From positions 1,970-65,969 of the forward strand of contig JBELJQ010000002.1 of the NCBI GenBank assembly GCA_042090305.1: a stretch of 64,000 nt of DNA. The letters run 5' to 3'. The notes beneath the pieces are model-generated. The model did not search any database. It worked only from the letters and a program-made list of their open reading frames with translations, and was not told where the DNA came from. This document shows, piece by piece, positions 42,849 to 60,768 of this stretch. Position 1 is the first letter of the stretch. The number at the start of each line of letters is the position of its first letter. Source of the stretch: Pelagibacteraceae bacterium (GTDB taxonomy: Bacteria > Pseudomonadota > Alphaproteobacteria > Methylaequorales > Methylaequoraceae). Position numbers and translations under genes: made by a program.

Positions 42849-43640
42849 TTACATTCCTGGCAGTCTCATAAGACTAGCACCAACAGAGTCAAGTTCTTCA
42901 GTCATTTGAATCATTTTCACATGCATTTCAAATTTTCTTTGTTGATCAATAGTATTGACCATTTCTTCAACTGCATTAACATTACTTTTTTCTAATGTGC
43001 CGGCAACAAGCTTGCCTTGATTATTTGGCTCAATATCTACTAAACCTATCTGCCCATTCTCGTTAGGCTCAGATTCTAATCTGATATGACCATCAAGAGT
43101 TTTCTTTAGTCGATCATTTTCGGTGGGAACAAATGTAGCAATTAATGCAGCATTTACTGGAAGAGCATCTGGCTCTGCACCTGTTGGCTCAATAATGATT
43201 TCACCATTTGGTGAAATATCAATTCGCCTAAATGCTGGTAAAACAATTGGTTGCAACCCATCATCTAATATTTTATTTCCAGCTCCATCTAGAAGTTCAC
43301 CATTTTCACTAGTTTGTAGGTCACCTCTTCTCGAAAGTGCTGGCTTGCCTCCATCTCTAGGCTCAATTAGGAAATATCCGTTTCCATCGATTGCAATATC
43401 GAGAGGGTTACCAGTAGTGTCCATAGATCCTTGTTGTGTTGAAAATCCACCAACATTTCTACTGGAAACGATTCTTGGCTCAACTCCATTCTGCCTGTTA
43501 AGATAAATTGAACCAAAGTCTGTAACAACATCTTGACGATATCCAGGAGTACTAAGATTAGATAAATTATGAGAAGTGGCCGTTTGATTTTCCATCAACA
43601 TTTTTAGACTATTAAGAGCCGTTTGTGCCATTCTATCCAT
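42849..43640 (-). CDS. flgF: Flagellar basal-body rod protein FlgF
   Basis: N-terminus TSHNLSNLSTPGYR. C-terminus LEKSNVNAVEEMVNTIDQQRKFEMHVKMI matches FlgF (E. coli ...ANARRFEMQMKVI). Follows flgE. Confidence 0.85.
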   Translation of the reverse strand: MDRMAQTALNSLKMLMENQTATSHNLSNLSTPGYRQDVVTDFGSIYLNRQNGVEPRIVSSRNVGGFSTQQGSMDTTGNPLDIAIDGNGYFLIEPRDGGKPALSRRGDLQTSENGELLDGAGNKILDDGLQPIVLPAFRRIDISPNGEIIIEPTGAEPDALPVNAALIATFVPTENDRLKKTLDGHIRLESEPNENGQIGLVDIEPNNQGKLVAGTLEKSNVNAVEEMVNTIDQQRKFEMHVKMIQMTEELDSVGASLMRLPGM

Positions 43641-43669
43641 AACTTTTCTCCAAAAATAATACCGAATTA

Positions 43670-46600
43670 TTACATTCTAATATTTACAATCGCCTGTGTT
43701 GTTGCAGCTGTTGTTTCAATCGATTTAGCATTCGCCTGAAAGTTTCTTTGAGCTGTGATTAAATTAACAAGTTCTTCTGTAATATCAACATTAGATCTTT
43801 CAAGTGAACCTGAAAGAACAGTACCAAAACCCTCGGCACCTGCTTCACCAACTGTTGCAGTTCCTGATACAGCTGTTTCTACATATGTTGCATTACCAAT
43901 TTGTTTCAAACCATTTTGGTTGTTAAAGTTTGCCAATACAATCTTACCAAGTGGATTATTCTGTCCATTGGTATAGTTTGCTCTAACGGTACCTGATGCA
44001 TCAATCTCTAGACCATCCAATCTTCCAGATGTAAAACCATCCTGATTAACAGTCGATACGAAGAATGGCTGTGCTAACTGAGTTGACTTTGTAAAGTCAA
44101 TATCAAGGTCAATACTAAAACCAGCTTCCTGTTTCTCGTAATGAACTCCCTGTTTAGGACTTAGAATACTTCCTGATTTGTCAAATGTAAGTTCACCCTC
44201 GTCAATGTATAGTGGAAAATATCCATCTACCAAATTTGCAGGAGGCGTGGTAACTTTATTACCAGCAGCGTCAACAAATAGATTAAGTCCGTCCGCGTTA
44301 GTTGCCTGTTTAAGATTATAAATCTGAGGGACTGATCCTACGCCTAAATCAACGTTATCCAGCCCAAATTTAGAAGCACCTCTGACTTTAATAGTTGATT
44401 CCTTACCAGTTGTTCCGTTGGTAAATGTGAAATTATTAGTGGATGAGTTATATTTTACAGTAATACCCCCACCAACTACTCCGGTACTATCTTCAATCTG
44501 ATTAATTCTTTCTTGAAGAGCTTCTGCAAGAGTTGTTCCCACATAAAATCCCTGAGGTATCTCAATAACCCCAGCGACACCATTTACAGATACGTTAAAA
44601 ATATTTTCATTACTTTGATTTGTTAATCTAAAAACCTGAGATAAATCTTCAGTAGCTGATGAGCCAACTGCTTGTGCTGGCTGGGCGGCTAATCCTTTAG
44701 CATCAGTTGTAATTGCATTAGTTTTAGTAACACCAATTCCCAATAGGTTGTTATCTCCCGAGAAAAAGTCCGTACTGTCAGTCACTGATCCATCGGTAGT
44801 AGATAATAGGTACCTTCCAACAACAATACTTGAAGCAGTTTGAGCTTGGTTAACTCCAATTGCACCATTAGCTGCAATTGTTTCACCTGTTGTACCACTG
44901 CTAAATTCAAAAGATTTTAACTCACTATTATAGCCAACCTTAACTCCAAATCGTTTATCGTTGAGTTGAATTTCAGCTCCGTCAGCAACAAAAGTACTTG
45001 CAGAAAATTTAACACCACCTCTGATGAGTGTTTCAGAAGTATCATCAGCGGTTGGTATTCCAAGATTATTTTCATTAGTTGCAGTTGTTGAACCAAAAAT
45101 CTTGAAACTATTAAAATTACTATTTGTTCCCGTACCTATGAGATTTCTATCCACTTCAAACTGAAGTCTTTGATTTAACACATCATAAGAAACTTCAATT
45201 GGCGGATCTTGCTCATCAACCCAATGTGTTGCTGGTATTGTTTTATCAGTTGATGTTCCATCACCGTTAAGATAAACATCTCTTGTAGTTGCAGATGTAT
45301 TTTCTCCTAATCCTAGTAATTCATAAGAATCAATCGTTGCACCAGAAGTTACTTCACCAACTTTTAGTGTAAATACTTCGGCTAAGTCATCAATGATATT
45401 CTTAGCTGCACCATCTGCAGTTGTTTTTGTTACCATTGCTGCATTTGTATAATCATGCTTAGTCGTTGTTCCTATTTCCCTTACGACAATCTTTGAGCTA
45501 CTAAAGTTGACCGGTGCTCCAGAATAAACGTTTTGTGCTCCCTCAAAGAATGCCTCTACTGATGTAGATTCTTCAGAATAGATTTTCGCTGAATCATTTG
45601 CATCAGCTACAGACAAAGAAAAATCTGAATCTGGAAAATTTAATCCTGCAGTACTAGCTTCAACATAATAATAAGTAGTACCACCCACACTTTCAGACCC
45701 TGTTGTAGAAATAGTAAACTCTCGACCATTCACAAAATCAGAATTTGTATTCATTGTTGTATCTGAATAAAATGATCCAATAAATCTAACTTTTTCATTA
45801 GCTGTGAGTGCTGGGTCAGATGACCCAAAATAAAATCTAACAGTATTTTCAGATTGATCGTATGACACGGCTGTTGTGCTTGCGTTATCACCTAGTGAAT
45901 CTACCTCATCATAAACATGAAGTTCAGGACTTTTACCATGATATGAATAAGTCAGATTTCTAGCTGTAGAAGTAGCTCCAGATGCCGTTAACGCTGCTGC
46001 ATCAGTTGCAGTACGATGATTAAAAGTGAATGCCTGACTTTGGTCCAGTATAGTACTAATAGACTTACCAGATGCTCTGTAGAATAAGCTATCACCCACA
46101 CCTAAAGCAGTTGCACTAGCTACTGCATCGGTAGATGGTGTAACAGCATATTCATTTAGAGCTGCATTTAAACGAGCCTGAGTATGCGCTAAAAATTGGT
46201 CTCTTGTAAAATCCGGTGAAGCTCCAGTTAGGGTGATTCCCTCTAAATCAGAAACATATGAATCACTTAGTAGATCCACTGAAACTGGTGTAGTTAAACC
46301 CGTAGATGTTCCATCAGCGTTTAATTTTAATAAATCAATTGTTAAAGTATCATCAACATTTTGTACAATTTGAATTTTTTTATCATCTCCATAAGCTGCA
46401 TTAACAGCTCTTTGGATCTCTGTAGATAATTGTGCTGCATTATAAGCGCCTGGTCTAATATCAATGTTTACAGGTTGGTCACTATTATCAACGTTAATTG
46501 TCATAAAATTTGTCCCCCAATATACACTGGAAGTTGTGTCACCACTTTCACGAGTTGAGTTAAATTTCATTGGGTCTGTAACAATAGTTACAGTTTTGTC

Positions 46601-47542
46601 TCCTTCTTCACCAAAATCAAACGCACTTGATTCACCTGTTACCTTAGCTGGTGTTGAATCAATTAATGTTTGTAAATCATCTAACTTATACAAGGCAGAG
46701 CCTTTTCCTTCCAAGAAATAGTTATCATCTGGAACTGATGTAGTTTGTTGACCGAAACGATCAATAAAAATAGGTTGTTGAGTATCTGTAACTGAACGCA
46801 CTAAATCTGGATCAATTACCGTATCGTTAATGACCAATCTAGTTTCAAATTTATTGGTAGGATCATCAGCTGATGCTGCTTGTGTACGAATAAAAAATAT
46901 AGTTGCAATTGTGGGGTTACCTAAATCATCAAAGATTGTGATTGATGTTGAGTTATTGTAGGTAGTTGGATCATTAGGATCAAAAACATAACCATTTTCA
47001 AATTGTGGTTTATCGGTAATAATTTCACTTGTAGCAGAAACGTTTACACCTAATTCGATAGATGTTGTTGCCTTCGGAGTTCCTGAAGTTACTGGTAGTT
47101 GAAGAGGCACAGCACTAACTAAATCTTTTGCTGTAACTGATCCATCCTCGTTAACCGGAAAAGTAAGTAAAAACTGACCAGATGAATCTGTAACATATCT
47201 ATCATTATTCACGTTAAATGAACCGTTCCTTGTATAAACCGTCTGACCAGAAGTAAGTGATGGTTTTAATGAAAAGAAACCCTGTCCAGAAATTGCTACA
47301 TCTAAAACGTTAAGAGATGATGTAATATTACCCTGAGTAAACTGCTGCTTTACACTTTTTAGAATTGTACCAGAACCGATCGATGACGATGCATTCTGTA
47401 GTGGAGAAGTTGCAAAAATATCACCAAATTCAGCTCTTGACCTTTTGAAACCGGTTGTATTAACGTTTGCTATATTATTCGAAGTTGCAGAAATATCTGA
47501 CTGTGCTCCGTTTAACCCTGTTAATGCAGTATAAAATGACAT
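43670..47542 (-). CDS. flgE: Flagellar hook protein FlgE, giant form (1290 aa)
   Basis: N-terminus MSFYTALTGLNGAQSDISATSNNIANVNTTGFKRSRAEF. C-terminus LERSNVDITEELVNLITAQRNFQANAKSIETT. Follows flgD. Residues ~235-1085 are an extra Thr/Ser/Gly/Asp/Asn-rich, Cys-free insertion. Confidence 0.85.
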   Translation of the reverse strand: MSFYTALTGLNGAQSDISATSNNIANVNTTGFKRSRAEFGDIFATSPLQNASSSIGSGTILKSVKQQFTQGNITSSLNVLDVAISGQGFFSLKPSLTSGQTVYTRNGSFNVNNDRYVTDSSGQFLLTFPVNEDGSVTAKDLVSAVPLQLPVTSGTPKATTSIELGVNVSATSEIITDKPQFENGYVFDPNDPTTYNNSTSITIFDDLGNPTIATIFFIRTQAASADDPTNKFETRLVINDTVIDPDLVRSVTDTQQPIFIDRFGQQTTSVPDDNYFLEGKGSALYKLDDLQTLIDSTPAKVTGESSAFDFGEEGDKTVTIVTDPMKFNSTRESGDTTSSVYWGTNFMTINVDNSDQPVNIDIRPGAYNAAQLSTEIQRAVNAAYGDDKKIQIVQNVDDTLTIDLLKLNADGTSTGLTTPVSVDLLSDSYVSDLEGITLTGASPDFTRDQFLAHTQARLNAALNEYAVTPSTDAVASATALGVGDSLFYRASGKSISTILDQSQAFTFNHRTATDAAALTASGATSTARNLTYSYHGKSPELHVYDEVDSLGDNASTTAVSYDQSENTVRFYFGSSDPALTANEKVRFIGSFYSDTTMNTNSDFVNGREFTISTTGSESVGGTTYYYVEASTAGLNFPDSDFSLSVADANDSAKIYSEESTSVEAFFEGAQNVYSGAPVNFSSSKIVVREIGTTTKHDYTNAAMVTKTTADGAAKNIIDDLAEVFTLKVGEVTSGATIDSYELLGLGENTSATTRDVYLNGDGTSTDKTIPATHWVDEQDPPIEVSYDVLNQRLQFEVDRNLIGTGTNSNFNSFKIFGSTTATNENNLGIPTADDTSETLIRGGVKFSASTFVADGAEIQLNDKRFGVKVGYNSELKSFEFSSGTTGETIAANGAIGVNQAQTASSIVVGRYLLSTTDGSVTDSTDFFSGDNNLLGIGVTKTNAITTDAKGLAAQPAQAVGSSATEDLSQVFRLTNQSNENIFNVSVNGVAGVIEIPQGFYVGTTLAEALQERINQIEDSTGVVGGGITVKYNSSTNNFTFTNGTTGKESTIKVRGASKFGLDNVDLGVGSVPQIYNLKQATNADGLNLFVDAAGNKVTTPPANLVDGYFPLYIDEGELTFDKSGSILSPKQGVHYEKQEAGFSIDLDIDFTKSTQLAQPFFVSTVNQDGFTSGRLDGLEIDASGTVRANYTNGQNNPLGKIVLANFNNQNGLKQIGNATYVETAVSGTATVGEAGAEGFGTVLSGSLERSNVDITEELVNLITAQRNFQANAKSIETTAATTQAIVNIRM

Positions 47543-47564
47543 TTTTTATTTCTCCTTTAAGTTA

Positions 47565-48269
47565 TTAATCGTTTGTTTTAAGCTTGATTGCATCATTTGC
47601 TGAAATCTCACCATAATCTTTTGTTTCTAAAATTACATCCTCACTATTTTTTGGAGCAGAAGCTGCTATAACCTTATTATAGACGGCTGTACTTATTCCA
47701 TCACTTGCTTGACCATTCCCAGCATATGCTTGGATTGTAAGACGTGTTTTATTGCGTTTTATATCATCAGGTAAATCCGTCCAACTAAAACCAACCAAAC
47801 CTCTATCATTTGAACCAAGATTCATCGTATGAACAATTTCACCACTTGGGTTTGTGAAGGTTATACCCACATCATTTGAGTAAGCCGGCAAATCTACAAC
47901 TCCATGTATTTCACCTTTATCATCTGGGCTCGCAACTTGACCTGGAACTAAAACGGAATGACCTAAAAATTGAGCTGCCGTTGCCACTCTGTTAGGTTCT
48001 AACTTTGATCCTAAATTAGTTAAATTATTATTAATTTCAGTTATACCTGTTACAGTAGAAAATTGTGCCATTTGTGCGATAAAGTCACCATTATCCATTG
48101 GTGCAAATGGATCTTGATTCTGAAGCTGTGTTGTCATTAATTTCAAAAAATCTTCTTGACCAAGCGTATTTTTATTACCTTCTTTTTTTACATCATCTTG
48201 TGTTTTAACTCCCAACTTAGAGAGAATTTTGTTTAATGATTGTTCAGATGTATTTGAAATGTCAGTCAT
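47565..48269 (-). CDS. flgD: Flagellar hook capping/assembly protein FlgD
   Basis: LGQEDFLKLMTTQLQNQDPFAPMDNGDFIAQMAQFSTV is the FlgD signature. flgC-flgD-flgE order. Confidence 0.9.
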   Translation of the reverse strand: MTDISNTSEQSLNKILSKLGVKTQDDVKKEGNKNTLGQEDFLKLMTTQLQNQDPFAPMDNGDFIAQMAQFSTVTGITEINNNLTNLGSKLEPNRVATAAQFLGHSVLVPGQVASPDDKGEIHGVVDLPAYSNDVGITFTNPSGEIVHTMNLGSNDRGLVGFSWTDLPDDIKRNKTRLTIQAYAGNGQASDGISTAVYNKVIAASAPKNSEDVILETKDYGEISANDAIKLKTND

Positions 48270-48282
48270 AATTTACCCCTAT

Positions 48283-48696
48283 TTATTTTCCTAAACTTGC
48301 AGTTTTAAGCATTAGTGCTTTTATTGTTGATATTACTTCAACATTGTTTTGATAGTGTCTAGATGCTTCAAGCATATCTACATATTCTTCTTCAATATTG
48401 ACTGGAGCTCTATAAATAAAACCCTCTTGGTCAGCCATTGGATGGCCAGGTTTATACTCTTTAATTGGCTCAACATCCATTTTTTCTACAGAAACCGCAT
48501 CTACTGTCGAGATTCCCCTTTTCCTAATTAAGTCAAAATATTTAGTTTCGAAAACTGGTTTAACCGGTTTGTAAGCGTCTTGAGGACTAGAAGCAATATT
48601 ATCAGCATTAGCAAGATTACTAGCAGTTGCATTTAGTCTGACTAATTGAGCTCCCATTGCTCTTTGAGCTATATGATATATGTTTTTAATATCCAT
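48283..48696 (-). CDS. flgC: Flagellar basal-body rod protein FlgC
   Basis: LNATASNLANADN and VDMLEASRHYQNNVEV motifs. 137 aa. Confidence 0.92.
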   Translation of the reverse strand: MDIKNIYHIAQRAMGAQLVRLNATASNLANADNIASSPQDAYKPVKPVFETKYFDLIRKRGISTVDAVSVEKMDVEPIKEYKPGHPMADQEGFIYRAPVNIEEEYVDMLEASRHYQNNVEVISTIKALMLKTASLGK

Positions 48697-49085
48697 TATT
48701 CTCCTCTAATTGCGCTTAGCAAACCTCTGATTTTTGAATTTACAAAATCTAAGGTTGTTTGGTATCTAACTGAGTTTTGTGCGAATTCCATTTGCTCTAC
48801 AGCTAATTCAACCGTATTTCCATCAACTGATGGGTTTATAGACTGTCTATACTGGACTTTTCCTGGTAAATACTTTGTTGTTAATGCAATGTGACTATCA
48901 CTTGAAGTTTTTAGTGGACCGTTATTTAACGATCTTGCTAGTTCTACTTCAAAATCAACATCTCTTGCTTTAAAATTTGGAGTAGATGCATTTGCAATAT
49001 TAGATGCTAAAATTTCATTCTTCTTGTTTCTAATACTTAATGCATTGCTGTATACATCAAATTGTTGTTTAATATTGTTAACCAT
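48696..49085 (-). CDS. flgB: Flagellar basal-body rod protein FlgB
   Basis: ILASNIANASTPNFKARDVDFE and FAQNSVRYQTTLDF motifs. I place the start at ATG 49085. The track start at 49130 lies on top of the sigma-54 promoter. Confidence 0.85.
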   Translation of the reverse strand: MVNNIKQQFDVYSNALSIRNKKNEILASNIANASTPNFKARDVDFEVELARSLNNGPLKTSSDSHIALTTKYLPGKVQYRQSINPSVDGNTVELAVEQMEFAQNSVRYQTTLDFVNSKIRGLLSAIRGE

Positions 49086-49101
49086 AATTTTTTTTCGCTT
49101 T

Positions 49102-49117
49102 TGGTTTGGAATTTGCA
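49102..49117 (+). promoter_or_regulatory. Possible sigma-54 promoter for the divergent 369-aa gene
   Basis: The + strand reads TGGTTTGGAATTTGCA. GG-N10-GC spacing is exact and the -12 TTGCA is perfect. The -24 element deviates (TGGTTT). It shares the palindrome ATTTGCAAAT with the flgB promoter. The predicted +1 is near 49128, with a GAAAGG SD before the ATG at 49149. Confidence 0.45.
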
Positions 49118-49129
49118 AATTGAATGCCA
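49113..49129 (-). promoter_or_regulatory. Sigma-54 (-24/-12) promoter of the flgBCDEF operon
   Basis: Reverse strand reads TGGCATTCAATTTGCAA, versus consensus TGGCACG-N4-TTGCW. GG and GC have the exact spacing. The predicted +1 is near 49103, 18 nt before the flgB ATG. Confidence 0.75.
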
Positions 49130-49148
49130 AAAGAAAGGTTTTTAAATT

Positions 49149-50258
49149 ATGACTGAAAATAGAACATTTGAAACAAACTTAGATCCCGAGGTTGAAAAAA
49201 TAAGAGATCAGATAATTTCTAAGATTGGAGATAAACCTTTAGAAGAAGTAAATAAGATAATTAAAAAGCTTCTAATGGAAAATATGGATGAAACTATGAG
49301 ATTAGCTGCTCTAGCAGCAAGAGTTAAAATCATAAGAGGCAAAATAGCTCTACTTTATGATAGAAAAGTCCAAATCAAGCCTAATTTAAAAACTAAAATA
49401 CCAACCGAAGAAAAAATTATTGAATCAAAAAGAAATGAAACTAGGTGGGTAAGAATAAAAATGCTTGAGGCTGGCGAGGTGAATGGTAAACAAATTGATA
49501 AAGATGTAATTCTAGATGTTAAAGAAGAAGATTCAAAAATCTTAATTGATGCAAAAAAAGCAGAGATCATTAAAGAAAACGCAGAAAATGCTGAACCAAT
49601 TAGTAAAGCAGAACCTTTAAAAAAGGAAACTCCACCAAAAGAGAGCGAAAATTTAAAGGACTCAGAAAAGAAAGAAAATGTGAAAGATGAAACAACGAAT
49701 GACACAAATATTGAAAAAACAGTTCCAGATAATGATGACCCTAAGGAAAAAAAAATAAATTCGGATGCTAAAGAACCCAAAGATGAAAAGGTGAATCCCG
49801 ATACAGAAGCTACAAAAGATGAGAATGTAAATTCAAATAAAGAATCATTAAGTGATGATAAATCTAGTAAAGATTTACTAGATAAACATTTAGAAAAAGA
49901 AAAAATAGAGGATAAAGATATAAATGAAGAAGAGGGGAGTGATGCAAATAAAGAAATAAAAAATTCCAGTACGGAAGAAACTAGATCTAAAACTGTTAAA
50001 GATAATCAGAATAAAGATAAGGTTAGCGAGGCAGCTGAAGAAGTTGAAACCGATAAATTAGAAAAAGTTGATGAAAATAAAAAAGTGGAGAGCAAAACTT
50101 TGGACGATAAACCTAAAGCTTCATCTGAAGATTCTAAGCAAAATGGTGTAGAAAGTAATGAAGCAATAGATAATTCTAAAAATGATGATTCTGAAAAAAA
50201 AATATCTGAAGAAAATGAATCAACAGAAAATGAATCAACAGAAAATAAAAAATTATAG
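49149..50258 (+). CDS. Hypothetical protein: ~140-aa N-terminal domain plus ~230-aa Lys/Glu/Asp/Asn-rich disordered tail
   Basis: 369-aa ORF divergent from flgB. I recognise no motif. The tail has no Cys or aromatic residues and ends in a TENESTENESTEN repeat. Confidence 0.6.
   Translation: MTENRTFETNLDPEVEKIRDQIISKIGDKPLEEVNKIIKKLLMENMDETMRLAALAARVKIIRGKIALLYDRKVQIKPNLKTKIPTEEKIIESKRNETRWVRIKMLEAGEVNGKQIDKDVILDVKEEDSKILIDAKKAEIIKENAENAEPISKAEPLKKETPPKESENLKDSEKKENVKDETTNDTNIEKTVPDNDDPKEKKINSDAKEPKDEKVNPDTEATKDENVNSNKESLSDDKSSKDLLDKHLEKEKIEDKDINEEEGSDANKEIKNSSTEETRSKTVKDNQNKDKVSEAAEEVETDKLEKVDENKKVESKTLDDKPKASSEDSKQNGVESNEAIDNSKNDDSEKKISEENESTENESTENKKL
50211..50246 (+). repeat. 15-bp tandem repeat (GAAAATGAATCAACA x2.4) in the 3' end of the 369-aa ORF
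   Basis: Read directly: gaaaatgaatcaaca gaaaatgaatcaaca gaaaat. It is in frame and encodes ENEST ENEST EN. Confidence 0.9.
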
Positions 50259-50262
50259 AATT

Positions 50263-50628
50263 ATGCTAATTCGAAAGCACTTATTTAATTTGAAGTTAAT
50301 ATTCTTTTTAATGTTTATTTTTTTTTTAAATAGCTGTGAAGACTTATTTTTGAGGTTTAAGTATGAAACATATGAATGTCAGGAAAATAATATGGACCTT
50401 AGAAAGGTTTCAATTAAAGACAACGACGTCGGTGATCTCGTTGATGTGGAAATAGGTAACTATCTTTATAAATTCAAAATCATTGCAGTGAGTGACAAAG
50501 ATATGATTATAGAAGAGGAAGTTGAGGATTTCTCAATCAAAATAAATCATAACACCAATAACATGGAAGCAAAATTGAATAACTTAATATTTAAAGTAAA
50601 TTGTGATAAAAAAACTTTTAAAATGTAG
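50263..50628 (+). CDS. Putative small lipoprotein
   Basis: From the ATG at 50263: MLIRKHLFNLKLIFFLMFIFFLNSCEDLF. This is a signal peptide plus a lipobox-like LNSC. 121 aa. The track start at 50182 overlaps the upstream gene. Confidence 0.5.
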   Translation: MLIRKHLFNLKLIFFLMFIFFLNSCEDLFLRFKYETYECQENNMDLRKVSIKDNDVGDLVDVEIGNYLYKFKIIAVSDKDMIIEEEVEDFSIKINHNTNNMEAKLNNLIFKVNCDKKTFKM

Positions 50629-50637
50629 TTCTATTAG

Positions 50638-51063
50638 TTAACGTTTACCATGAAATTTTATAATTGGTTCAACTTCTTCGGTAGATAAGTTAGTTGCTTC
50701 AGAAATTTCTGAAATATTTTTTCCCTGATTAGCCATTTGAATGGCCATCGTAATTTTTGATTCACCGCTTGATGAATCCGCTAAACGTGCAATCTCTAAA
50801 TCAATCTTTTCTAATGTATACTTATAATCTTCAATAACTTTCTTCTGGTCTGTAAATAAAAGTTCTAGTCTTCTAAACTCTTCAATGAGATCTTTGATTG
50901 CCCTTTCAAGCATATAAACTTTCTTCGCGTTATCTTTATTCTTTTTATTATCCAGATAATACCCTAATGCAATAATGGATAACATAAATAAAGATATAAG
51001 AGTCAAGAGCAAAATAAAGTTATTTGATGATTCATTAGAAAAAAGATTATTAATAAAGTTCAT
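50638..51063 (-). CDS. Membrane-anchored coiled-coil protein with C-terminal HTH-like segment (DUF2802-like?)
   Basis: N-terminal TM helix, coiled-coil middle, C-terminus ITMAIQMANQGKNISEISEATNLSTEEVEPIIKF. This resembles the DUF2802 proteins of gamma-proteobacterial flagellar/chemotaxis clusters. Assignment is from memory only. Confidence 0.35.
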   Translation of the reverse strand: MNFINNLFSNESSNNFILLLTLISLFMLSIIALGYYLDNKKNKDNAKKVYMLERAIKDLIEEFRRLELLFTDQKKVIEDYKYTLEKIDLEIARLADSSSGESKITMAIQMANQGKNISEISEATNLSTEEVEPIIKFHGKR

Positions 51064-51094
51064 AAAACAATGATATTATTATAGTGAAACAATC

Positions 51095-51379
51095 TCAACT
51101 TGTATTAATTTTTCTATCTTTAAGGAATTTAACGAAGTCAGTTAAAATTTGGCTTTGAGATTTCTGTTTTGAGACAAGTATAGACAAAGTCTTTTCCAAC
51201 TCATTGATTTTTTCTTTAAGGTCAGTCTCTTGATTATTATTTTCTGAGCTTGCTAAAAGTTCTGTGATTAGCTTCGACTCTGTTATTATTTCTTCTTCTA
51301 TTTTAAGTATTTCAGTATTATTTTTTGCATCTATAAGACTTTTTAGAAGAGACACAACATAATCAATTTTTTTTTTCAT
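51095..51379 (-). CDS. Possible FlgN-like export chaperone
   Basis: 94 aa, all-helical, Leu/Glu/Lys-rich. It lies directly downstream of flgM, as in the flgA-flgM-flgN operons. The call is by position only. Confidence 0.35.
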   Translation of the reverse strand: MKKKIDYVVSLLKSLIDAKNNTEILKIEEEIITESKLITELLASSENNNQETDLKEKINELEKTLSILVSKQKSQSQILTDFVKFLKDRKINTS

Positions 51380-51395
51380 TGATATGTGAGGTCTA

Positions 51396-51707
51396 CTATT
51401 TCATTTCTTTATATGCATCAAACAAAGCATCTGTGAGTTTATCTAAGTCAATAGGATAATCACCATTAGCAATAGCTGCTTTAATTCTAGATGTTGTTTG
51501 TTTGTCAATTGGTGGTTCCTTAGCCATATCCTTTACTCTCTCTTTGGAAATGAACTGCGAAACTTTCCCAAAATTACTATCAATTCCAGCTTTTGAATGA
51601 TCAACTTTAGAAACTTCGCTACTTTTCTTGTTAGCTGAGGGTTCGCTAGATACTTTAGTATCTTTAAACGTCGAACTTAAGTTTTTTATGTTAATCTTAT
51701 CAATCAT
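51396..51707 (-). CDS. flgM: Anti-sigma-28 factor FlgM
   Basis: 103 aa, disordered Ser/Lys-rich N-half. C-terminus IDKQTTSRIKAAIANGDYPIDLDKLTDALF matches the FlgM sigma-28-binding region. Follows flgA. Confidence 0.8.
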   Translation of the reverse strand: MIDKINIKNLSSTFKDTKVSSEPSANKKSSEVSKVDHSKAGIDSNFGKVSQFISKERVKDMAKEPPIDKQTTSRIKAAIANGDYPIDLDKLTDALFDAYKEMK

Positions 51708-51728
51708 TTTTTATATTCCTTTTAATTA

Positions 51729-51755
51729 TTAACGACAATAACCTAAAATTGTTTA
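51729..51755 (-). promoter_or_regulatory. Candidate sigma-28 (FliA) promoter for flgM
   Basis: Reverse strand reads TAAA-N15-GTCGTTAA, versus consensus TAAA-N15-GCCGATAA (6/8 in the -10). It overlaps the flgA stop and lies ~20 nt upstream of the flgM SD and ATG. Confidence 0.5.
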
Positions 51756-52438
51756 GCATGCATTATAACTTTTTTTTCATTTTTTGCATAAACTCGCAAA
51801 ATTTTTCCACTTTTAACATTCTTAACTGTTAGTTTATCCATAAAATTTGCATTTTCAAGCGCAATACCTGATTCTTTTATAGTTATACTAGATTTATTGT
51901 TGACTATTGTGACAATTGAATTTTTTTCAATCAGCCAATCTTGTTCAACATCATTAAATTGGATTGCGATATTCTTATTCATATTTCTTTTTAGTTTTTT
52001 ACCCAAGATCTCTGATTTATTTGTAATAAAAGCACTGTTATTACTTTTTTTACTTAATTCTATTAGATTTTCTTCTTTTATTACTGTTCCACTCCTTAGG
52101 TTTTCTTTTAATGCAAATGTTTTTAATACGCTGTAACTTCTAACTTTTTGTTTAATATTTTTTTTATTTCTTACTATAAATTGCCAAGGATTTTTCCCTA
52201 TACATTTTACTTTTATAAGTTTAAATTCTCCTGAAATATCATTGATAATTAAGTCTGAATATTTACAAAATGGATATTTTAATTCTTCTAAAATTTCAAT
52301 ATTTGAAGTTTGACCTTTATTATCTAACCAAGTTTCAATAGCTACTTGTAAGTCTTTTCCATTAACAGTTTTAGATAAACATGGAGTAAAACTCAGTGAT
52401 ACTAAAAAAAATATTATATTTCTAACTCTTTTTTTCAT
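51743..52438 (-). CDS. flgA: Flagellar P-ring assembly chaperone FlgA
   Basis: Signal peptide, SAF-like segment LKENLRSGTVIKEENL. C-terminus LTVKNVKSGKILRVYAKNEKKV is typical of FlgA. Confidence 0.75.
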   Translation of the reverse strand: MKKRVRNIIFFLVSLSFTPCLSKTVNGKDLQVAIETWLDNKGQTSNIEILEELKYPFCKYSDLIINDISGEFKLIKVKCIGKNPWQFIVRNKKNIKQKVRSYSVLKTFALKENLRSGTVIKEENLIELSKKSNNSAFITNKSEILGKKLKRNMNKNIAIQFNDVEQDWLIEKNSIVTIVNNKSSITIKESGIALENANFMDKLTVKNVKSGKILRVYAKNEKKVIMHAKQF

Positions 52439-52440
52439 AT

Positions 52441-52869
52441 TTATGGGTTAAAAAAGTATATATGTTGACTGTTTGTATTAGATGAATGGTCAATATTTTT
52501 AATGTTTTTTATGAGGTTCATTATTTGATTTAATGAAGGGATAGTTAAACTTTTTCCAGCAAACATATAATTCGGGTTGTTTCTAACAAATGCATGTTTA
52601 TTCATTTCTAGTACTGAAACTTCTATCATTCTCATATTTAAACCACTATTACCGTAATATTTTTTTAAAATATCACTTAAAGATTCTCCTTTTTTTATCT
52701 TATGTTTGACGTGATGACTTGGATTTTTTACAAAATCATTGTTTTTATTTGGAGATGTGCCCTTAGAATAATTTCCTTTGTAATCAAGAACAACAAATGG
52801 TTCCTGAGAGAATGAAAAGGTGGATATTAATAGTGTTATAAATAAAATTTTAATTTGAATAATTCTCAT
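52441..52869 (-). CDS. Secreted small protein with FimV-type LysM peptidoglycan-binding motif
   Basis: Signal peptide, then HKIKKGESLSDILKKYYGNSGLNMRMIEVSVLEMNKHAFVRNNPNYMFAGKSLTIPS. This resembles the FimV/HubP N-terminal LysM (..GDTL..IA......Q....L...NP.AF...N.N.L..G..L.IP). Confidence 0.55.
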   Translation of the reverse strand: MRIIQIKILFITLLISTFSFSQEPFVVLDYKGNYSKGTSPNKNNDFVKNPSHHVKHKIKKGESLSDILKKYYGNSGLNMRMIEVSVLEMNKHAFVRNNPNYMFAGKSLTIPSLNQIMNLIKNIKNIDHSSNTNSQHIYFFNP

Positions 52870-52878
52870 ATAACTTTC

Positions 52879-54060
52879 CTAGTTAATAAATTTTATAAAT
52901 TTACCTTCAATAAATTCGTTTTTATTATTTGGGTTTAAGGGTTCAATCTCAGAAAAATCTTCATTTATGTTTTTAACTGTAACAACAATCCAATCATTCA
53001 TACTGACATCCATTCCATTTGGGGAAATTATACCAAGCTTATCTTTACTAAGACCTTGATTACTTCCTAATGAAACAATTAGCTTGTTGTTGATTTTTTT
53101 TACAACCGCTTCAAGTGGACGACATTTTAGCTGATCCATAACTCTGTACTGAACTTTTGATAAACTTTTTTCAACTAATACTCTTATTTTATCGTATGAC
53201 TTTTTGTAAAAGGCGTCAATATGCTGATATCCAGTTTTTTGTCCTAAAAATAAAGAAAAGTCATATTCTAAACTATCTATGAGATTAAAATTACTATTTT
53301 GATAAACGTCCAGTCTAAGTTTTATTAATATCTCTTTTGAGAATCTACCAATATTTCCGTCAATACTGTCTATGATTACAGTTGGATGAACAGCAAATTC
53401 ACCATCTTTTAGAGACATAGATTTTCCTTCCACAATACTGTCGTAGTCTAAGTCTGAAGATTTGATTGGTATTTTCTTTACATTAAAAAAAACATTTGAT
53501 TTATCTCTTAACCTTATAAAATCAATATTTCTTAAATTTTTTCTAATATTTTCTGAAATAACATTTGGAAGTTTATGAGTCCATGGTTCAAGCTTACTTG
53601 AAACTGTAAAGTGAGGAGAAAGAAATGACAAATTTACAAAATTTCTATCAGAGCAATCAGAAGATGTATTTATATTTATTAGATATGCCTTAATTTTTAT
53701 TACATAATGACTTTTATCCTCTTTTTCATCCAATATCACAAAATCAGTAATGGTAGACGCTGGTCTAACTAAAAGGTTTTCGCTTAATCTAGTTAAATTG
53801 TCTACATTAGAATATCCGTCAATTTTCGCACCACCTCTTAAACTTGCAAGATATAATGCATCATCAAGAGCTCTTTTTTTTGCAATTTCCTTATTACCAT
53901 CACTTATAACAGCTCTTCCTTCTGTAATAATTTCTTTTAGACCAAAACTATCAGCCAAAGCATATGTGGAAATAAGCAAAAGAAATAATACACTTAAAAA
54001 AAATGAAACTAGTTCTCTTAAAACTACATCAAATAAGCTATATTCAACTTTTCTAAACAT
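52879..54060 (-). CDS. FlgT-like periplasmic flagellar protein (tentative)
   Basis: 393 aa, N-terminal signal/anchor. EGRAVISDGNKEIAKKRALDDALYLASLRGGAKIDGYSNV resembles an FlgT_N/LPP20-type fold. Size and position next to flgP match Vibrio flgT (~380 aa). Confidence 0.4.
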   Translation of the reverse strand: MFRKVEYSLFDVVLRELVSFFLSVLFLLLISTYALADSFGLKEIITEGRAVISDGNKEIAKKRALDDALYLASLRGGAKIDGYSNVDNLTRLSENLLVRPASTITDFVILDEKEDKSHYVIKIKAYLININTSSDCSDRNFVNLSFLSPHFTVSSKLEPWTHKLPNVISENIRKNLRNIDFIRLRDKSNVFFNVKKIPIKSSDLDYDSIVEGKSMSLKDGEFAVHPTVIIDSIDGNIGRFSKEILIKLRLDVYQNSNFNLIDSLEYDFSLFLGQKTGYQHIDAFYKKSYDKIRVLVEKSLSKVQYRVMDQLKCRPLEAVVKKINNKLIVSLGSNQGLSKDKLGIISPNGMDVSMNDWIVVTVKNINEDFSEIEPLNPNNKNEFIEGKFIKFIN

Positions 54061-54063
54061 ATT

Positions 54064-54570
54064 CTATAAAGTTTGGGCAGACCTAAATAAATAGGCAACC
54101 ATGTCTTGGTCTATTTCTAAAACAGTTTCATAAGTGTCTTGACCAGTTGGATTTATTCTTACTGTTCTCGCGCCTCTGATAACTCCGGATACTACACCTC
54201 TAAAAGTGTCATTTTGAACCATTAAATCAATAACAGTTGTATTACTGTCTACTTTTAATCCATGAATTTGTTCAGCTAAATCTCTCATTGCCGACATTCT
54301 CGCAGCTCTTATAGCCATCAATCTTTTCTGTTCAATACTCTGGCCTGGTTGACTAGATACCACTGCATAACCCGTTGCAGTGAGTGTCGGAAAATTAATA
54401 GATGCACCATCAAGTAACTCTCTTGTTTTGTTTAACTGATCAGTAGGGGTTGAATAATCCTGACTATTAGCTAACTTTTGATTATTGTTTGGTAATCCTA
54501 TATTATCTAATAAGTTTGTCGAACATGATTGCACCAAAATTGCAATAATAAATAAATATATGTACTTCAT
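54064..54570 (-). CDS. FlgP-like LPP20-family flagellar lipoprotein
   Basis: Lipobox-like ILVQSCS. LPP20 core TATGYAVVSSQPGQSIEQKRLMAIRAARMSAMRDLAEQIHGLKVDSNTTV. Confidence 0.6.
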   Translation of the reverse strand: MKYIYLFIIAILVQSCSTNLLDNIGLPNNNQKLANSQDYSTPTDQLNKTRELLDGASINFPTLTATGYAVVSSQPGQSIEQKRLMAIRAARMSAMRDLAEQIHGLKVDSNTTVIDLMVQNDTFRGVVSGVIRGARTVRINPTGQDTYETVLEIDQDMVAYLFRSAQTL

Positions 54571-54602
54571 TTTTTATCCTCAAATGTTGTTTTTGGTAAT
54601 TT

Positions 54603-54619
54603 GTGCATAAATTATGCCA
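54603..54619 (-). promoter_or_regulatory. Sigma-54 promoter of the flgP-flgT-LysM-flgA(-flgM...) operon
   Basis: Reverse strand reads TGGCATAATTTATGCAC. GG/GC spacing is exact; the -12 is ATGCA. The predicted +1 is near 54593, 23 nt before the ATG at 54570. Confidence 0.65.
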
Positions 54620-54656
54620 AGAAGATAATTATCAGAAAACTCTCCATAGTAGATAA

Positions 54657-54673
54657 TGGCATAGCCCTTGCAT
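54657..54673 (+). promoter_or_regulatory. Sigma-54 promoter of the flhA-flhF-flhG-fliA operon
   Basis: The + strand reads TGGCATAGCCCTTGCAT, a near-perfect match to TGGCACG-N4-TTGCW. The predicted +1 is near 54683, 88 nt before the flhA ATG. Confidence 0.75.
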
Positions 54674-54770
54674 CTTATATGTTAATGAATTTTATTTTTA
54701 AAATAATAGGGATTTCTGGGATTTTTAACAGTCAATTTTTTGACTATAAAAATCTTATTAAAGGATAATT

Positions 54771-56918: not shown

Positions 56919-58023
56919 AGCTAAAGATATGAAGTCTGCTATAAACCTTGTAAACGATCAATTTGGCGAAAAGGCTATAATTTTATCTACTAGGAAAAAT
57001 AATGGTCTTGTTGAGGTGGAAGCTTCTGATACCGAGGATGTAATTCAAAAACATAAAGAGAAAATCAAAGATAAGGAAAGTTTCTCAAAAGTTTTTATGA
57101 AAGAAATTAAGGAAAAGAATGATAATGTTTCATTTTTTGATACAGAAAATAAGACAAAGTACGAAAGTAGTCAAAAACTTGAAGTTTATGATGAAATTAA
57201 GCAACAAATTTATTCTTTAAGGGATGATTTAAGTAGAATGGTTTTAACTGACCAGTCAGGAATTTCTGATGAACTCTCTCACTTAACACCTATTAAACTT
57301 CGACAAGAAAAGTTTTTACCAGAAGTCATTAATAAATTTAGTCATTCATTTATTGGAAAAAATAGTGAAGATGGCAGGATTGCTTTTTTCAGAGAATTAT
57401 CTAGAAAACTTGCATCTAACGATTTTTCTAGAATGTTAAATTCCAATAATATATTTATTTTTGGAAACTCTGGGTCTGGAAAATCTACATTATCTGCTAA
57501 AATTGCTTCATTTCTATCGGATAAAAGGTCAACAAAAGAAATAAACTTTATTGATGTTTCTAATTCAGGAACTTCACACAGTGATATTCTTAGATCATAT
57601 AGTAGGGTTCTAAGCTTTCCCGTAAAAGATTATAAATATTTTGATTTCAATCAAAATCAAAATGATCGCTCAAAAATTAATATTTTTGATTTTTCAGGAG
57701 ATCTTAATTTTAGTTTGCAAAAAATTAATGAGATAAAAAATTCATTTCCGTCTTTTGATTTTTGTTCTATATTAGCTATACCAAGTGGTTCTAATTCTGA
57801 AATGATAAAAGGAATGTGCGAGAGAGTTTCAGATGTAAGACCAATGGTTGCTATCACAAAGCTTGATGAATGCTGGGTGGGAGCTGAAGAATTTTCTTCA
57901 CTTGCATTAAATAATGCAAGAATAGGCTTAGTTACTGGTACAAAAGTATTGATTAACTCAGTAATCGAAGCTAATGAGAATTCTCTAACGAAATATATGA
58001 AAGAGAACTTAAAAGGTGTCTGA
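56899..58023 (+). CDS. flhF: Flagellar placement SRP-type GTPase FlhF (divergent G motifs)
   Basis: From the ATG at 56899 (AGGAG SD): MKTQLFKAKDMKSAINLVNDQFGEKAIILS is a typical FlhF B-domain start. G1 is GNSGSGKST, G3 is DFSG, G4 is TKLDE. Follows flhA. Confidence 0.8.
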   Translation: MKTQLFKAKDMKSAINLVNDQFGEKAIILSTRKNNGLVEVEASDTEDVIQKHKEKIKDKESFSKVFMKEIKEKNDNVSFFDTENKTKYESSQKLEVYDEIKQQIYSLRDDLSRMVLTDQSGISDELSHLTPIKLRQEKFLPEVINKFSHSFIGKNSEDGRIAFFRELSRKLASNDFSRMLNSNNIFIFGNSGSGKSTLSAKIASFLSDKRSTKEINFIDVSNSGTSHSDILRSYSRVLSFPVKDYKYFDFNQNQNDRSKINIFDFSGDLNFSLQKINEIKNSFPSFDFCSILAIPSGSNSEMIKGMCERVSDVRPMVAITKLDECWVGAEEFSSLALNNARIGLVTGTKVLINSVIEANENSLTKYMKENLKGV

Positions 58024-58810: not shown

Positions 58811-58819
58811 AATATCAGT

Positions 58820-59906: not shown

Positions 59907-59907
59907 T

Positions 59908-60693: not shown

Positions 60694-60704
60694 GAAGCAT
60701 GAAC

Positions 60705-60720
60705 AGCAATTATTATGCCA
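60705..60720 (-). promoter_or_regulatory. Sigma-54 promoter of the flgG-like gene
   Basis: Reverse strand reads TGGCATAATAATTGCT, with exact GG-N10-GC spacing and a TTGCT -12. The C of the GC is only 13 nt upstream of the ATG. Confidence 0.65.
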
Positions 60721-60768
60721 TTTTTTATTGTTGAGATTCTTTTTTAAATGTATATTGGGATTGTTATC

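What the first reader, a model, noticed from the sequence alone, without database searches (positions are those of the whole stretch)
49102..49129. Overlapping bidirectional sigma-54 promoters sharing one palindromic -12 element (ATTTGCAAAT)
On the minus strand, TGGCATTCAATTTGCAA sits 18 nt upstream of the flgB ATG at 49085. On the plus strand, TGGTTTGGAATTTGCA sits 21 nt upstream of the 369-aa ORF (ATG at 49149, with a GAAAGG SD).

Both have the invariant GG and GC exactly 12 nt apart. Both use the very same G:C/C:G base pairs (49115/49116) as their -12 GC.

Two sigma-54 holoenzymes could not occupy both at once. This would therefore be a mutually exclusive, direction-choosing promoter.

It also argues two further points. 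The flgB start is 49085, not 49130. The unknown 369-aa protein belongs to the flagellar regulon.
Basis: seen in the sequence. Interest (0 to 1): 0.65.

Follow-up and report, generated by a model that had tools for sequence, protein, structure and literature searches.

The report
Two-way sigma-54 flagellar promoter
A 39-bp stretch between the flagellar rod gene flgB and an unknown divergent gene reads as a sigma-54 promoter in both directions around one shared palindromic -12 element. It is almost unchanged across dozens of uncultured marine alphaproteobacterial species, so it is probably a natural two-way, mutually exclusive sigma-54 promoter, although no transcript has been mapped.

Summary
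TGGCATTCAATTTGCA (minus, 49129->49114) and TGGTTTGGAATTTGCA (plus, 49102-49117) share the GC at 49115/49116 inside the palindrome AATTTGCAAATT, within a 63-bp intergenic region.

I built a weight matrix from 135 E. coli sigma-54 ChIP-seq sites. Its five best hits in the whole window are exactly five sites in three flagellar intergenic regions:
- flgP-like: 19.0 bits
- flgF: 17.7 bits
- flgB: 17.7 bits
- the plus-strand site: 15.1 bits
- flhA: 14.9 bits

Chance expectation is 0.66 hits.

In 39 related loci (36 distinct sequences), TTTGGTT...TTTGCAAAT...TGCCAAA is invariant with fixed spacing, while the flanks are scrambled. In three one-way sigma-54 promoters of the same genomes, only the -24 and -12 elements are conserved. 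In the most distant relatives the spacers change but both TGG elements and the spacing stay. That argues against a hairpin or a long operator.

A relative carries rpoN on the same contig as this locus. The flgB start at 49085 is confirmed.

The flgB promoter is near certain. The reverse promoter for the 369-aa gene is probable (about 0.5) but unproven. I rate it a new variant of a known kind, the sigma-54 counterpart of symmetric sigma-70 bidirectional promoters.

The parts
49100..49138 (.). Ultraconserved 39-bp intergenic block, TTTGGTTTGGAATTTGCAAATTGAATGCCAAAAGAAAGG. It contains both sigma-54-like sites and the Shine-Dalgarno sequence of the plus gene.
   Evidence: Anchored comparison of 38 loci, 36 of them distinct. 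TTTGGTT, TTTGCAAAT and TGCCAAA are invariant. Only 3 R/Y positions vary in the main clade. The flanks are not alignable.
49114..49130 (-). Sigma-54 promoter of flgBCDE: TTGGCATTCAATTTGCA. The -24 GG is at 49128/49127 and the -12 GC at 49116/49115. Predicted +1 is about 49103.
   Evidence: PWM score is 17.66 bits, the 93rd percentile of E. coli bound sites. The site scores 17.1-18.5 bits in all relatives. It has the same TGGCAT-N5-TTGC form as the flgP-like, flhA and flgF promoters.
49101..49117 (+). Reverse-oriented sigma-54-like site: TTGGTTTGGAATTTGCA. The -24 GG is at 49103/49104 and it shares the -12 GC at 49115/49116. Predicted +1 is about 49128. It is the putative promoter of the 369-aa gene.
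   Evidence: PWM score is 15.06 bits, 4th best in the window and the 65th percentile of real sites. The site scores 14.05-15.06 bits in all 39 clade loci. The TGG register is kept in the distant L041/L043 although the spacer differs.
49110..49121 (.). Perfect 12-bp palindrome AATTTGCAAATT, the shared -12 element. The dyad centre lies between 49115 and 49116.
   Evidence: Read directly. It is invariant in the main clade, and the core TTTGCAAAT is invariant in all loci.
48696..49085 (-). flgB (129 aa). Its true start is ATG 49085. It is the first gene of flgB-flgC-flgD-flgE.
   Evidence: TIGR01396 gives E = 5.8e-31 and NF009262 aligns residues 1-129 to model positions 1-130. Gene calls of 129 aa are.
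49149..50258 (+). Divergent 369-aa gene. The conserved N-terminal 145 aa form three helices plus a small beta domain. The tail is variable, acidic, Lys-rich and low in complexity. Function is unknown.
   Evidence: The family has 101 hits and 362 representatives at 50% identity. It lies divergent from flgB in all 33 genome loci. There is no Pfam, NCBIfam or PDB match. The AlphaFold2 model has pLDDT 66 and no fold match.
49133..49138 (+). Shine-Dalgarno sequence GAAAGG of the 369-aa gene, 10 nt before the ATG. It lies just downstream of the predicted plus +1.
   Evidence: Read. AAAAGAAAGG is conserved in the main clade. In L041/L043 the SD has moved (GAGGAAA) but TGCCAAAA is kept.
54604..54620 (-). 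Sibling sigma-54 promoter of the flgP-like (LPP20)-flgT-...-flgA-flgM operon. It serves as control promoter 1.
   Evidence: PWM score is 19.0 bits. Only TGGCAT and ATGCA are conserved in 5 species, and the -11..+1 region varies.
54656..54672 (+). Sibling sigma-54 promoter of flhA-flhF-flhG-fliA. It serves as control promoter 2.
   Evidence: PWM score is 14.9 bits. TGGCAT-N5(variable)-CTTGCATCT is conserved in 5 species.
60705..60721 (-). Sibling sigma-54 promoter of flgF. It serves as control promoter 3 and as a calibrator of TSS distance.
   Evidence: PWM score is 17.7 bits. In 5 species TGGCATA..TTGCT is conserved. The ATG begins 12-13 nt after the -12 C, and the intervening sequence varies.

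Best explanation
The 63-bp flgB/369-aa intergenic region carries one compact, dyad-symmetric sigma-54 promoter unit.

RNA polymerase-sigma-54 can dock on it in either orientation. In both orientations it uses the same palindromic -12 element (TTTGCAAA, GC at 49115/49116). The two -24 elements sit 12 bp to either side.
- The strong one is TTTGGCA (read on the minus strand, 49131->49125). It drives flgBCDE from about 49103.
- The weaker one is TTTGGTT (plus strand, 49100-49106). It drives the conserved 369-aa gene from about 49128, just upstream of its invariant AAAAGAAAGG ribosome-binding site.

Each -24 element lies over the other promoter's start site, and each spacer is the other promoter's melting region. 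Only one holoenzyme can therefore sit there at a time.

The 2.5-4.5-bit difference in match, kept in all relatives, would bias occupancy towards flgB. It would let a minority of enhancer-protein-triggered initiations go to the divergent gene. Both genes would then fall under the same sigma-54/activator control, in a set ratio.

What is shown: the sequence anatomy, the PWM ranks, the phylogenetic footprint, three one-way control promoters, rpoN in a relative, and the flgB start.

What is inferred: that the plus site fires, the TSS positions, mutual exclusion, the ratio-setting role, and the identity of the activator.
For: 1. An independent PWM (135 E. coli ChIP-seq sites, PMC4591121) puts the plus site 4th of about 128,000 window positions. 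It scores above the conserved flhA promoter, with a gap to the next hit at 13.1 bits. The null expectation is 0.66 hits.
2. TTTGGTT, TTTGCAAAT and TGCCAAA are invariant with fixed spacing in 36 distinct sequences. The encoded protein is only 38-78% identical across them, and the adjacent intergenic DNA is scrambled.
3. In the flgP-like, flhA and flgF promoters of the same genomes, only -24 and -12 are conserved. Their spacers and -11..+1 regions vary freely. The conserved TTTGGTTTRGAA downstream of the flgB -12 therefore needs a second function.
4. In the distant L041/L043 both N7 spacers are replaced and are not complementary. TGG-N8-TTGCAAAT-...-TGCCA is kept exactly. Symmetry is thus limited to the sigma-54 elements.
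5. No sigma-70-like promoter fits in the 63 bp, and the conserved 5' leader starts where the plus +1 is predicted.
6. The positions that vary inside the block (49108, 49122, 49124) are low-information or tolerated PWM positions in both readings.
7. rpoN lies on the same contig as the locus in a relative.
8. The flgF ATG sits 12-13 nt after the -12 C in 5 species, which calibrates the +1 distance.
Against: - No transcript 5' ends are available for either direction.
- TGGTT is a poor -24. T at the A position occurs in 7 of 135 E. coli sites, and TGGTT as a whole occurs in 1 of 135 (one search counts, one search list).
- TGGTT never drifts towards TGGCA in any relative. That suggests the TT is held by something other than promoter strength alone.
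- The PWM comes from E. coli, not from this lineage.
- No activator binding site was identified near the block. The only FleQ-type box in the window is at flhA.
- A sigma-54 holoenzyme bound in the plus orientation could be silent, as most E. coli sites are (PMC4591121).
- rpoN was shown in a relative, not in the window's own genome.
Confidence: 0.5

Rival explanations
1. There is only one promoter, flgB. The reverse match is a by-product of a palindromic -12. The conserved TTTGGTTTRGAA is held for another reason. It could be the binding site of a dimeric regulator, or of the class III activator, on the dyad TTTGG-N22-CCAAA or AATTTGCAAATT. It could also be a start-site or downstream element of the flgB promoter. 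The 369-aa gene would then be transcribed from elsewhere.
For: - Dyad symmetry and a perfect 12-bp palindrome are typical of operators.
- AATT on each side of TTGCAA is conserved beyond what sigma-54 needs.
- TGGTT is never improved towards TGGCA.
- From my own knowledge: flagellar sigma-54 activators such as FleQ and FlrC can bind downstream of the start site. A FleQ-type box does lie downstream of the flhA promoter here.
- The 369-aa protein has a three-helix N-terminal domain and is encoded divergently, as autoregulators often are.
Against: - Three control promoters show no conserved start-site region.
- In L041/L043 everything between the sigma-54 elements changes, while the GG and GC registers are kept.
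- The three conserved blocks are about 14 bp apart centre to centre. That is the sigma-54 -24/-12 geometry, not helical-repeat half-sites.
- No known motif (FleQ box, CtrA box, sigma-28) fits the block (and inspection).
- The plus gene would be left without any conserved promoter.
Confidence: 0.25
2. The 369-aa gene is transcribed by a sigma-70-type (or other) promoter, either overlapping the block or inside the flgB coding region. One candidate is a -10-like TTRAAT/TACAAT at 49120-49125. Sigma-54 bound at the flgB promoter would then act as a competitor or repressor of it.
For: - TTGAAT/TTAAAT, and TACAAT in L041/L043, lie 7-8 nt upstream of the conserved leader (inspection).
- Sigma-54 binding is reported to repress overlapping promoters (PMC4591121).
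- The AT-rich genome offers many weak -10 elements.
- A 9/12 sigma-70-like match exists at 48948-48976 inside flgB.
Against: - There is no acceptable -35 or extended -10 at the right distance, and the region where a -35 would lie is variable.
- The promoter scan finds no site in the intergenic region. The intragenic site is at chance level (1 found, 1.9 expected).
- This model does not explain the invariant TTTGGTT.
Confidence: 0.17
3. The plus-strand match is pure coincidence and has no function of any kind.
For: TTGCA followed by A is self-complementary, so the reverse -12 comes free. GG in register has p = 0.023 per promoter.
Against: The site is invariant across 36 distinct sequences whose flanks are saturated with change. 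The chance of reaching the observed score is p = 0.002.
Confidence: 0.03

Closest known systems
Symmetric bidirectional sigma-70 promoters (Warman et al., preprint 10.1101/2020.01.31.928960; regulatory rules in PMC12825309)
   Same: - One pseudo-symmetric core element is read on both strands.
- The divergent TSSs are closely spaced (7-25 bp in that work; about 25 bp predicted here).
- Each start site overlaps an element of the opposite promoter.
- One polymerase binding event excludes the other.
   Different: - In that work the shared element is the -10 hexamer of sigma-70, initiation is spontaneous, and most cases are weak or non-coding.
- Here the shared element would be the sigma-54 -12 (TTGCAA). 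The closed complexes are stable and wait for an ATPase activator, and both products are conserved mRNAs.
- Neither paper mentions sigma-54 (0 occurrences).
Back-to-back divergent sigma-54 promoter pairs (E. coli hycA/hypA and zraP/zraSR; the flgP-like/flhA pair in this window)
   Same: Two sigma-54 promoters fire in opposite directions from one intergenic region, under a common activator.
   Different: - The motif centres are 128 and 154 bp apart in E. coli (table) and 52 bp apart at flgP-like/flhA here. They are separate -12 elements and can be occupied at the same time.
- At flgB the centres are 13 bp apart and the -12 is shared.
Sigma-54-dependent flagellar hierarchies of polar flagellates (Pseudomonas FleQ/FleSR, Vibrio FlrA/FlrBC)
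   Same: - flhA-flhF-fleN(flhG)-fliA lies behind a sigma-54 promoter, as in P. putida (PMC6424431).
- A box identical to the P. putida FleQ consensus GTCAaAAAAtTGAC sits at flhA.
- flgB, flgF and flgP-like carry sigma-54 promoters.
- FlgT, LPP20/FlgP, FlhF, FlhG and DUF2802 are present.
   Different: - The host is an AT-rich alphaproteobacterial lineage.
- In the described systems the divergent neighbour of flgB is not this unknown gene.
- To my knowledge no shared-element promoter has been reported there.

Membership tests
Sigma-54 (RpoN)-dependent promoter: minus-strand flgB site | GG and GC dinucleotides in the TGGCAC-N5-TTGCW register, with an overall match comparable to experimentally bound sites | tested here: met
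   TTGGCATTCAATTTGCA scores 17.66 bits, the 93rd percentile of 135 E. coli ChIP-seq sites.
Sigma-54 (RpoN)-dependent promoter: minus-strand flgB site | -24 and -12 elements conserved in orthologous promoters, and position suitable for the downstream gene | tested here: met
   The site scores 17.1-18.5 bits in 39 loci. The predicted +1 is 18 nt before ATG 49085.
Sigma-54 (RpoN)-dependent promoter: minus-strand flgB site | rpoN present in the genome | tested here: met
   Shown for a relative, not for the window's own genome. RpoN P0147 and the homologous locus lie on one 377,894-bp contig. No rpoN or activator gene lies in the 64-kb window.
Sigma-54 (RpoN)-dependent promoter: minus-strand flgB site | Transcription depends on sigma-54 and an AAA+ enhancer-binding protein, with the TSS about 12 nt after the -12 C | not testable with these tools
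   No expression data or TSS data are available.
Sigma-54 (RpoN)-dependent promoter: plus-strand site for the 369-aa gene | GG/GC register and overall match comparable to bound sites | tested here: met
   The site scores 15.06 bits, the 65th percentile, and ranks 4th in the window. However, the -24 reads TGGTT rather than TGGCA.
Sigma-54 (RpoN)-dependent promoter: plus-strand site for the 369-aa gene | Elements conserved in relatives independently of the overlapping flgB promoter | tested here: inconclusive
   TTTGGTT is invariant, and control promoters show no such constraint. No genome separates the two genes, so independence cannot be shown.
Sigma-54 (RpoN)-dependent promoter: plus-strand site for the 369-aa gene | Productive, rpoN-dependent initiation | not testable with these tools
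   This needs TSS mapping or reporters.
Bidirectional promoter by core-element symmetry (Warman type) | Core elements of the two orientations coincide on opposite strands | tested here: met
   The GC at 49115/49116 is shared within the 12-bp palindrome.
Bidirectional promoter by core-element symmetry (Warman type) | Divergent TSSs detected 7-25 bp apart | not testable with these tools
   The predicted pair is 49103 and 49128, 25 bp apart. Nothing has been measured.
Bidirectional promoter by core-element symmetry (Warman type) | Sigma-70 -10 element as the symmetric unit | tested here: not met
   The symmetric unit is a sigma-54 -12 element. No sigma-70-like promoter is found in the intergenic region. 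It works like this class but is not a member as the class is defined.
FlgB (flagellar proximal rod protein), start at 49085 | Full-length match to FlgB equivalog models from residue 1 | tested here: met
   TIGR01396 scores 107 bits against a cut-off of 59. NF009262 aligns residues 1-129 to model positions 1-130.

The most novel reading that the evidence does not exclude
The orientation in which a single sigma-54 holoenzyme docks on a symmetric -24/-12/-24 unit is itself the regulated or ratio-setting step. One activator-dependent site would then split initiations between the rod/hook operon and an unknown conserved flagellar gene. This would be the first natural bidirectional sigma-54 promoter with a shared -12 element. 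It is maintained across a whole order-level marine lineage whose flagellar genes also include a leaderless sigma-54 transcript (flgF).
Probability: 0.35. Interest if true: 0.75.

Novelty: new variant of a known kind. Interest (0 to 1): 0.58.

Why it matters
Sigma-54 promoters are treated as strictly one-way. The holoenzyme sits in a stable closed complex until an ATPase activator fires it.

A natural site that binds the holoenzyme in two exclusive orientations would be a clean system for three questions:
- How is orientation chosen?
- Do closed complexes compete?
- Can one activator serve both directions?

The sigma-70 bidirectional promoters cannot address these questions, because their basal occupancy is too low for competition (PMC12825309).

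The finding also shows how a streamlined genome packs two regulated promoters into about 32 bp. It ties an uncharacterised protein family (362 representative clusters at 50% identity) to flagellar assembly. It corrects flgB and flgF start calls in public records.

Tried and rejected
- **Wrong spacer at first.** My first pattern, TGG-N9-TTGC, missed the site. I corrected it to N8.
- **RNA or DNA hairpin, or a long operator.** Rejected. The N7 segments are not complementary, and they are replaced without compensation in L041/L043.
- **Sigma-70 promoter in the intergenic region.** None found.
- **Sigma-28, CtrA or FleQ motifs in the block.** None by inspection. The only exact GTCA-N6-TGAC in the window is at flhA.
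- **'CCAAAA at +1 is a general start-site feature'.** The window's flgP-like promoter has TTTTTGG downstream, but this is not conserved in relatives and is out of register by 2 nt.
- **Logan contigs from six runs all starting at 49111.** These looked like a possible TSS signal. They are k = 31 assembly breaks, because sister species share 31-mers in the block.
- **Function of the 369-aa protein.** Pfam, NCBIfam, a PDB sequence search, AlphaFold2 plus Foldseek, and Pfam on distant members all came back empty.
- **rpoN or activator genes in the window and 10-kb flanks of relatives.** Absent. rpoN was found only through a chain: metagenome scan, then homologue search, then matching contig.
- **Literature.** Searches for overlapping or bidirectional sigma-54 promoters found nothing relevant. 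Two searches on AEGEAN-169/HIMB59 flagella gave nothing usable. The lineage name is therefore left open.

Full report
**What is there.** The window is AT-rich (about 29% GC). Between 42.8 and 60.7 kb it carries a flagellar gene cluster (Pfam):
- a flgG-like gene
- a 1290-aa flgE, then flgD, flgC and flgB
- the 369-aa ORF and a 137-148-aa ORF
- DUF2802, flgM, flgA, a LysM/FimV-like gene, flgT and an LPP20/FlgP-like gene
- flhA, flhF, flhG and fliA
- flgF

flgB (minus) and the 369-aa ORF (plus) are divergent and only 63 bp apart (49086-49148).

**Checking the observation.**
- Minus strand: TGGCATTCAATTTGCA, 49129->49114.
- Plus strand: TGGTTTGGAATTTGCA, 49102-49117.
- Both follow the TGG-N8-TTGC register, and both use the GC at 49115/49116.
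- That GC is the centre of the 12-bp palindrome AATTTGCAAATT (49110-49121).

**Is it more than chance?** I built a position weight matrix from the 135 high-stringency E. coli sigma-54 ChIP-seq motifs printed in Bonocora et al. 2015 (PMC4591121). I scored every position of the window on both strands. The five best hits are:

| Site | Strand | Score (bits) |
|---|---|---|
| flgP-like | - | 19.0 |
| flgF | - | 17.7 |
| flgB | - | 17.7 |
| plus-strand site | + | 15.06 |
| flhA | + | 14.9 |

- The next hit scores 13.1 bits.
- First-order Markov sequences give 0.66 hits of 14.9 bits or more per window, with a maximum of 3 in 100.
- The plus site sits at the 65th percentile of real E. coli sites.
- With the palindromic right half fixed, a random left half reaches 15 bits with p = 0.002. 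GG falls in register with p = 0.023.

A single sequence is suggestive. The comparative data carry the weight.

**Relatives.** The N-terminal 145 residues of the 369-aa protein define an unannotated family:
- 101 hits, aligned as A1.
- 362 representative clusters at 50% identity.

A scan of one genome per species found 33 loci. All come from uncultured marine Alphaproteobacteria (single-cell genomes and MAGs, some titled Rickettsiales, Pelagibacteraceae or Rhodospirillaceae). In all of them the gene is divergent from flgB. Five more loci came from long ENA contigs.

I anchored the 38 loci, window included, on the central GC; 36 of the sequences are distinct. They show TTTGGTT, TTTGCAAAT and TGCCAAA invariant at fixed spacing. 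In the main clade the whole 39-bp block 49100-49138 varies at only three R/Y positions. The DNA between the block and the flgB ATG, and after GAAAGG, differs in both sequence and length.

The plus site keeps 14.05-15.06 bits and the minus site 17.1-18.5 bits in the 39 loci scored, which adds L170.

**Controls.** Three other sigma-54 promoters of the same genomes are one-way.
- At flgP-like and flhA (5 species) and at flgF (5 species), only the -24 (TGGCAT) and -12 elements are conserved.
- Their spacers and the -11 to +1 regions vary freely.
- The conserved TTTGGTTTRGAA downstream of the flgB -12 is therefore not a general property of these promoters.

In the most distant loci (L041/L043, protein 41% identical) both 7-nt inter-element segments are replaced and are not complementary to each other. 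TGG-N8-TTGCAAAT...TGCCA is kept to the base.
- The symmetry is thus confined to the sigma-54 elements. This argues against a hairpin or an extended operator.
- The three variable positions of the block fall on PWM positions that tolerate those changes in both readings.

**Other requirements.**
- *rpoN.* No rpoN or activator gene lies in the window or the flanks I fetched. A metagenome scan for an AT-rich RpoN box gave an alphaproteobacterial-type RpoN (L110). Its homologue P0147 is 484 aa with the Sigma54_AID, Sigma54_CBD and Sigma54_DBD domains. P0147 lies on the same 377,894-bp contig (ERZ28548063, broomfield_1 contig_8037) as the flgB/divergent-gene locus. It is about 87 kb away and next to motAB. 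That locus carries the block.
- *Alternative promoters.* A sigma-70 scan finds nothing in the intergenic region.
- *flgB start.* FlgB models align from residue 1 of the ATG-49085 product. The upstream stretch is non-coding in relatives, because its length differences are not multiples of 3.

**Mechanism proposed.** The flgB promoter is close to certain. The most economical reading of the extra conservation is a second, weaker sigma-54 promoter in the opposite orientation.
- It would share the -12 element.
- Its +1 (about 49128 by the 12-nt rule of PMC4591121) lies just upstream of the invariant AAAAGAAAGG leader.
- The flgF ATG position supports that 12-nt distance.

Each -24 element overlies the other's start site, and each spacer is the other's melting region. 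This explains why nearly every base pair is fixed, and it implies mutual exclusion. Mutual exclusion is inferred from the known extent of sigma-54 closed complexes. It has not been tested.

The constant score gap suggests occupancy is biased towards flgB.

**Rivals.**
- A regulator site on the dyad.
- A sigma-70-type promoter using TTRAAT/TACAAT at 49120-49125.
- Coincidence.

All three are set out separately with their tests.

The main weakness of the proposed reading is the poor -24 (TGGTT). Only 1 of the 135 E. coli sites has it. It never improves in any relative. No transcript data exist.

**Comparison with known systems.**
- Divergent sigma-54 pairs are known but lie 128-154 bp apart in E. 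coli. The flgP-like/flhA pair here is 52 bp apart.
- Bidirectional promoters built on a symmetric core element are described for sigma-70 (10.1101/2020.01.31.928960; PMC12825309). Neither paper mentions sigma-54.
- Six literature searches found no report of a shared -12 bidirectional sigma-54 promoter. The library is not complete, so prior description cannot be excluded.

I therefore rate this a new variant of a known kind.

**Verdict.**
The flgB promoter and the flgB start are solid, and rpoN is present in the lineage.
- The reverse promoter is probable (about 0.5).
- Mutual exclusion and regulon membership of the 369-aa gene are inferred.
- The function of the 369-aa protein remains unknown.

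Noticed in passing
window 60691-60721 (minus); L171-L174 around position 1480-1503: The flgF sigma-54 promoter (TGGCATAATAATTGCT) ends so close to the gene that the ATG begins 12-13 nt after the -12 C. This holds in the window and in four other species, although the intervening bases differ. The prediction is a leaderless (0-1 nt leader) sigma-54-dependent mRNA, which I have not seen described. Public 278-aa gene calls start inside the -24 element and look wrong.
   Followed up: partly
window 54731-54744; aligned in L044-L047: GTCAATTTTTTGAC lies about 60 nt downstream of the flhA sigma-54 promoter. Its reverse complement is GTCAAAAAATTGAC, which matches the P. putida FleQ consensus GTCAaAAAAtTGAC at 14 of 14 positions. 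GTCA-N6-TGAC is conserved in 5 species. It is the only exact copy in the window. This implies a Pseudomonas-type FleQ activator acting from downstream.
   Followed up: partly
window 54604-54672: The flgP-like operon and flhA have back-to-back divergent sigma-54 promoters whose motif centres are only 52 bp apart. That is much closer than the E. coli hyc/hyp or zraP/zraS pairs (128-154 bp).
   Followed up: partly
window 43670-47542 (minus); L045 4556-8392: The hook protein FlgE is 1290 aa here and 1278 aa in a relative, about three times the usual size. The extra length is large inserted domains between the conserved ends.
   Followed up: no
window 49111; loci L002, L004, L006, L007, L009, L010: Logan assemblies from six independent sequencing runs all break at exactly 49111, inside the block. 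The best explanation is that co-occurring sister species share 31-mers there. This is an assembly side effect of the ultraconservation, not a biological end.
   Followed up: yes
window 42849-60693: The flagellar cluster has parts typical of Vibrio/Pseudomonas polar flagella (FlgT, LPP20/FlgP, FlhF, FlhG, DUF2802, a FimV/LysM-like gene). The records of all relatives are labelled Alphaproteobacteria. This may be a horizontally acquired gamma-type flagellar system, as is known for Rhodobacter fla1 (from my own knowledge).
   Followed up: no
window 49086-49099 and the same stretch in L011-L047: The flgB leader is only about 18-26 nt long, is A/T-rich, and has no Shine-Dalgarno sequence in any species. 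The divergent gene has an invariant GAAAGG. The two mRNAs from one promoter unit would be translated by different initiation modes.
   Followed up: no
L168 3425-7455: In the relative that carries rpoN, the gene sits next to motA/motB and near three bactofilin genes. It is not in the usual lptB-rpoN-hpf-ptsN arrangement.
   Followed up: no
window 50182-50628 (plus): A second unannotated ORF (137-148 aa, overlapping the end of the 369-aa gene) follows on the same strand. It is also called in relatives (119-120 aa in L044/L045). It is probably co-transcribed with the 369-aa gene. It has no family match.
   Followed up: no
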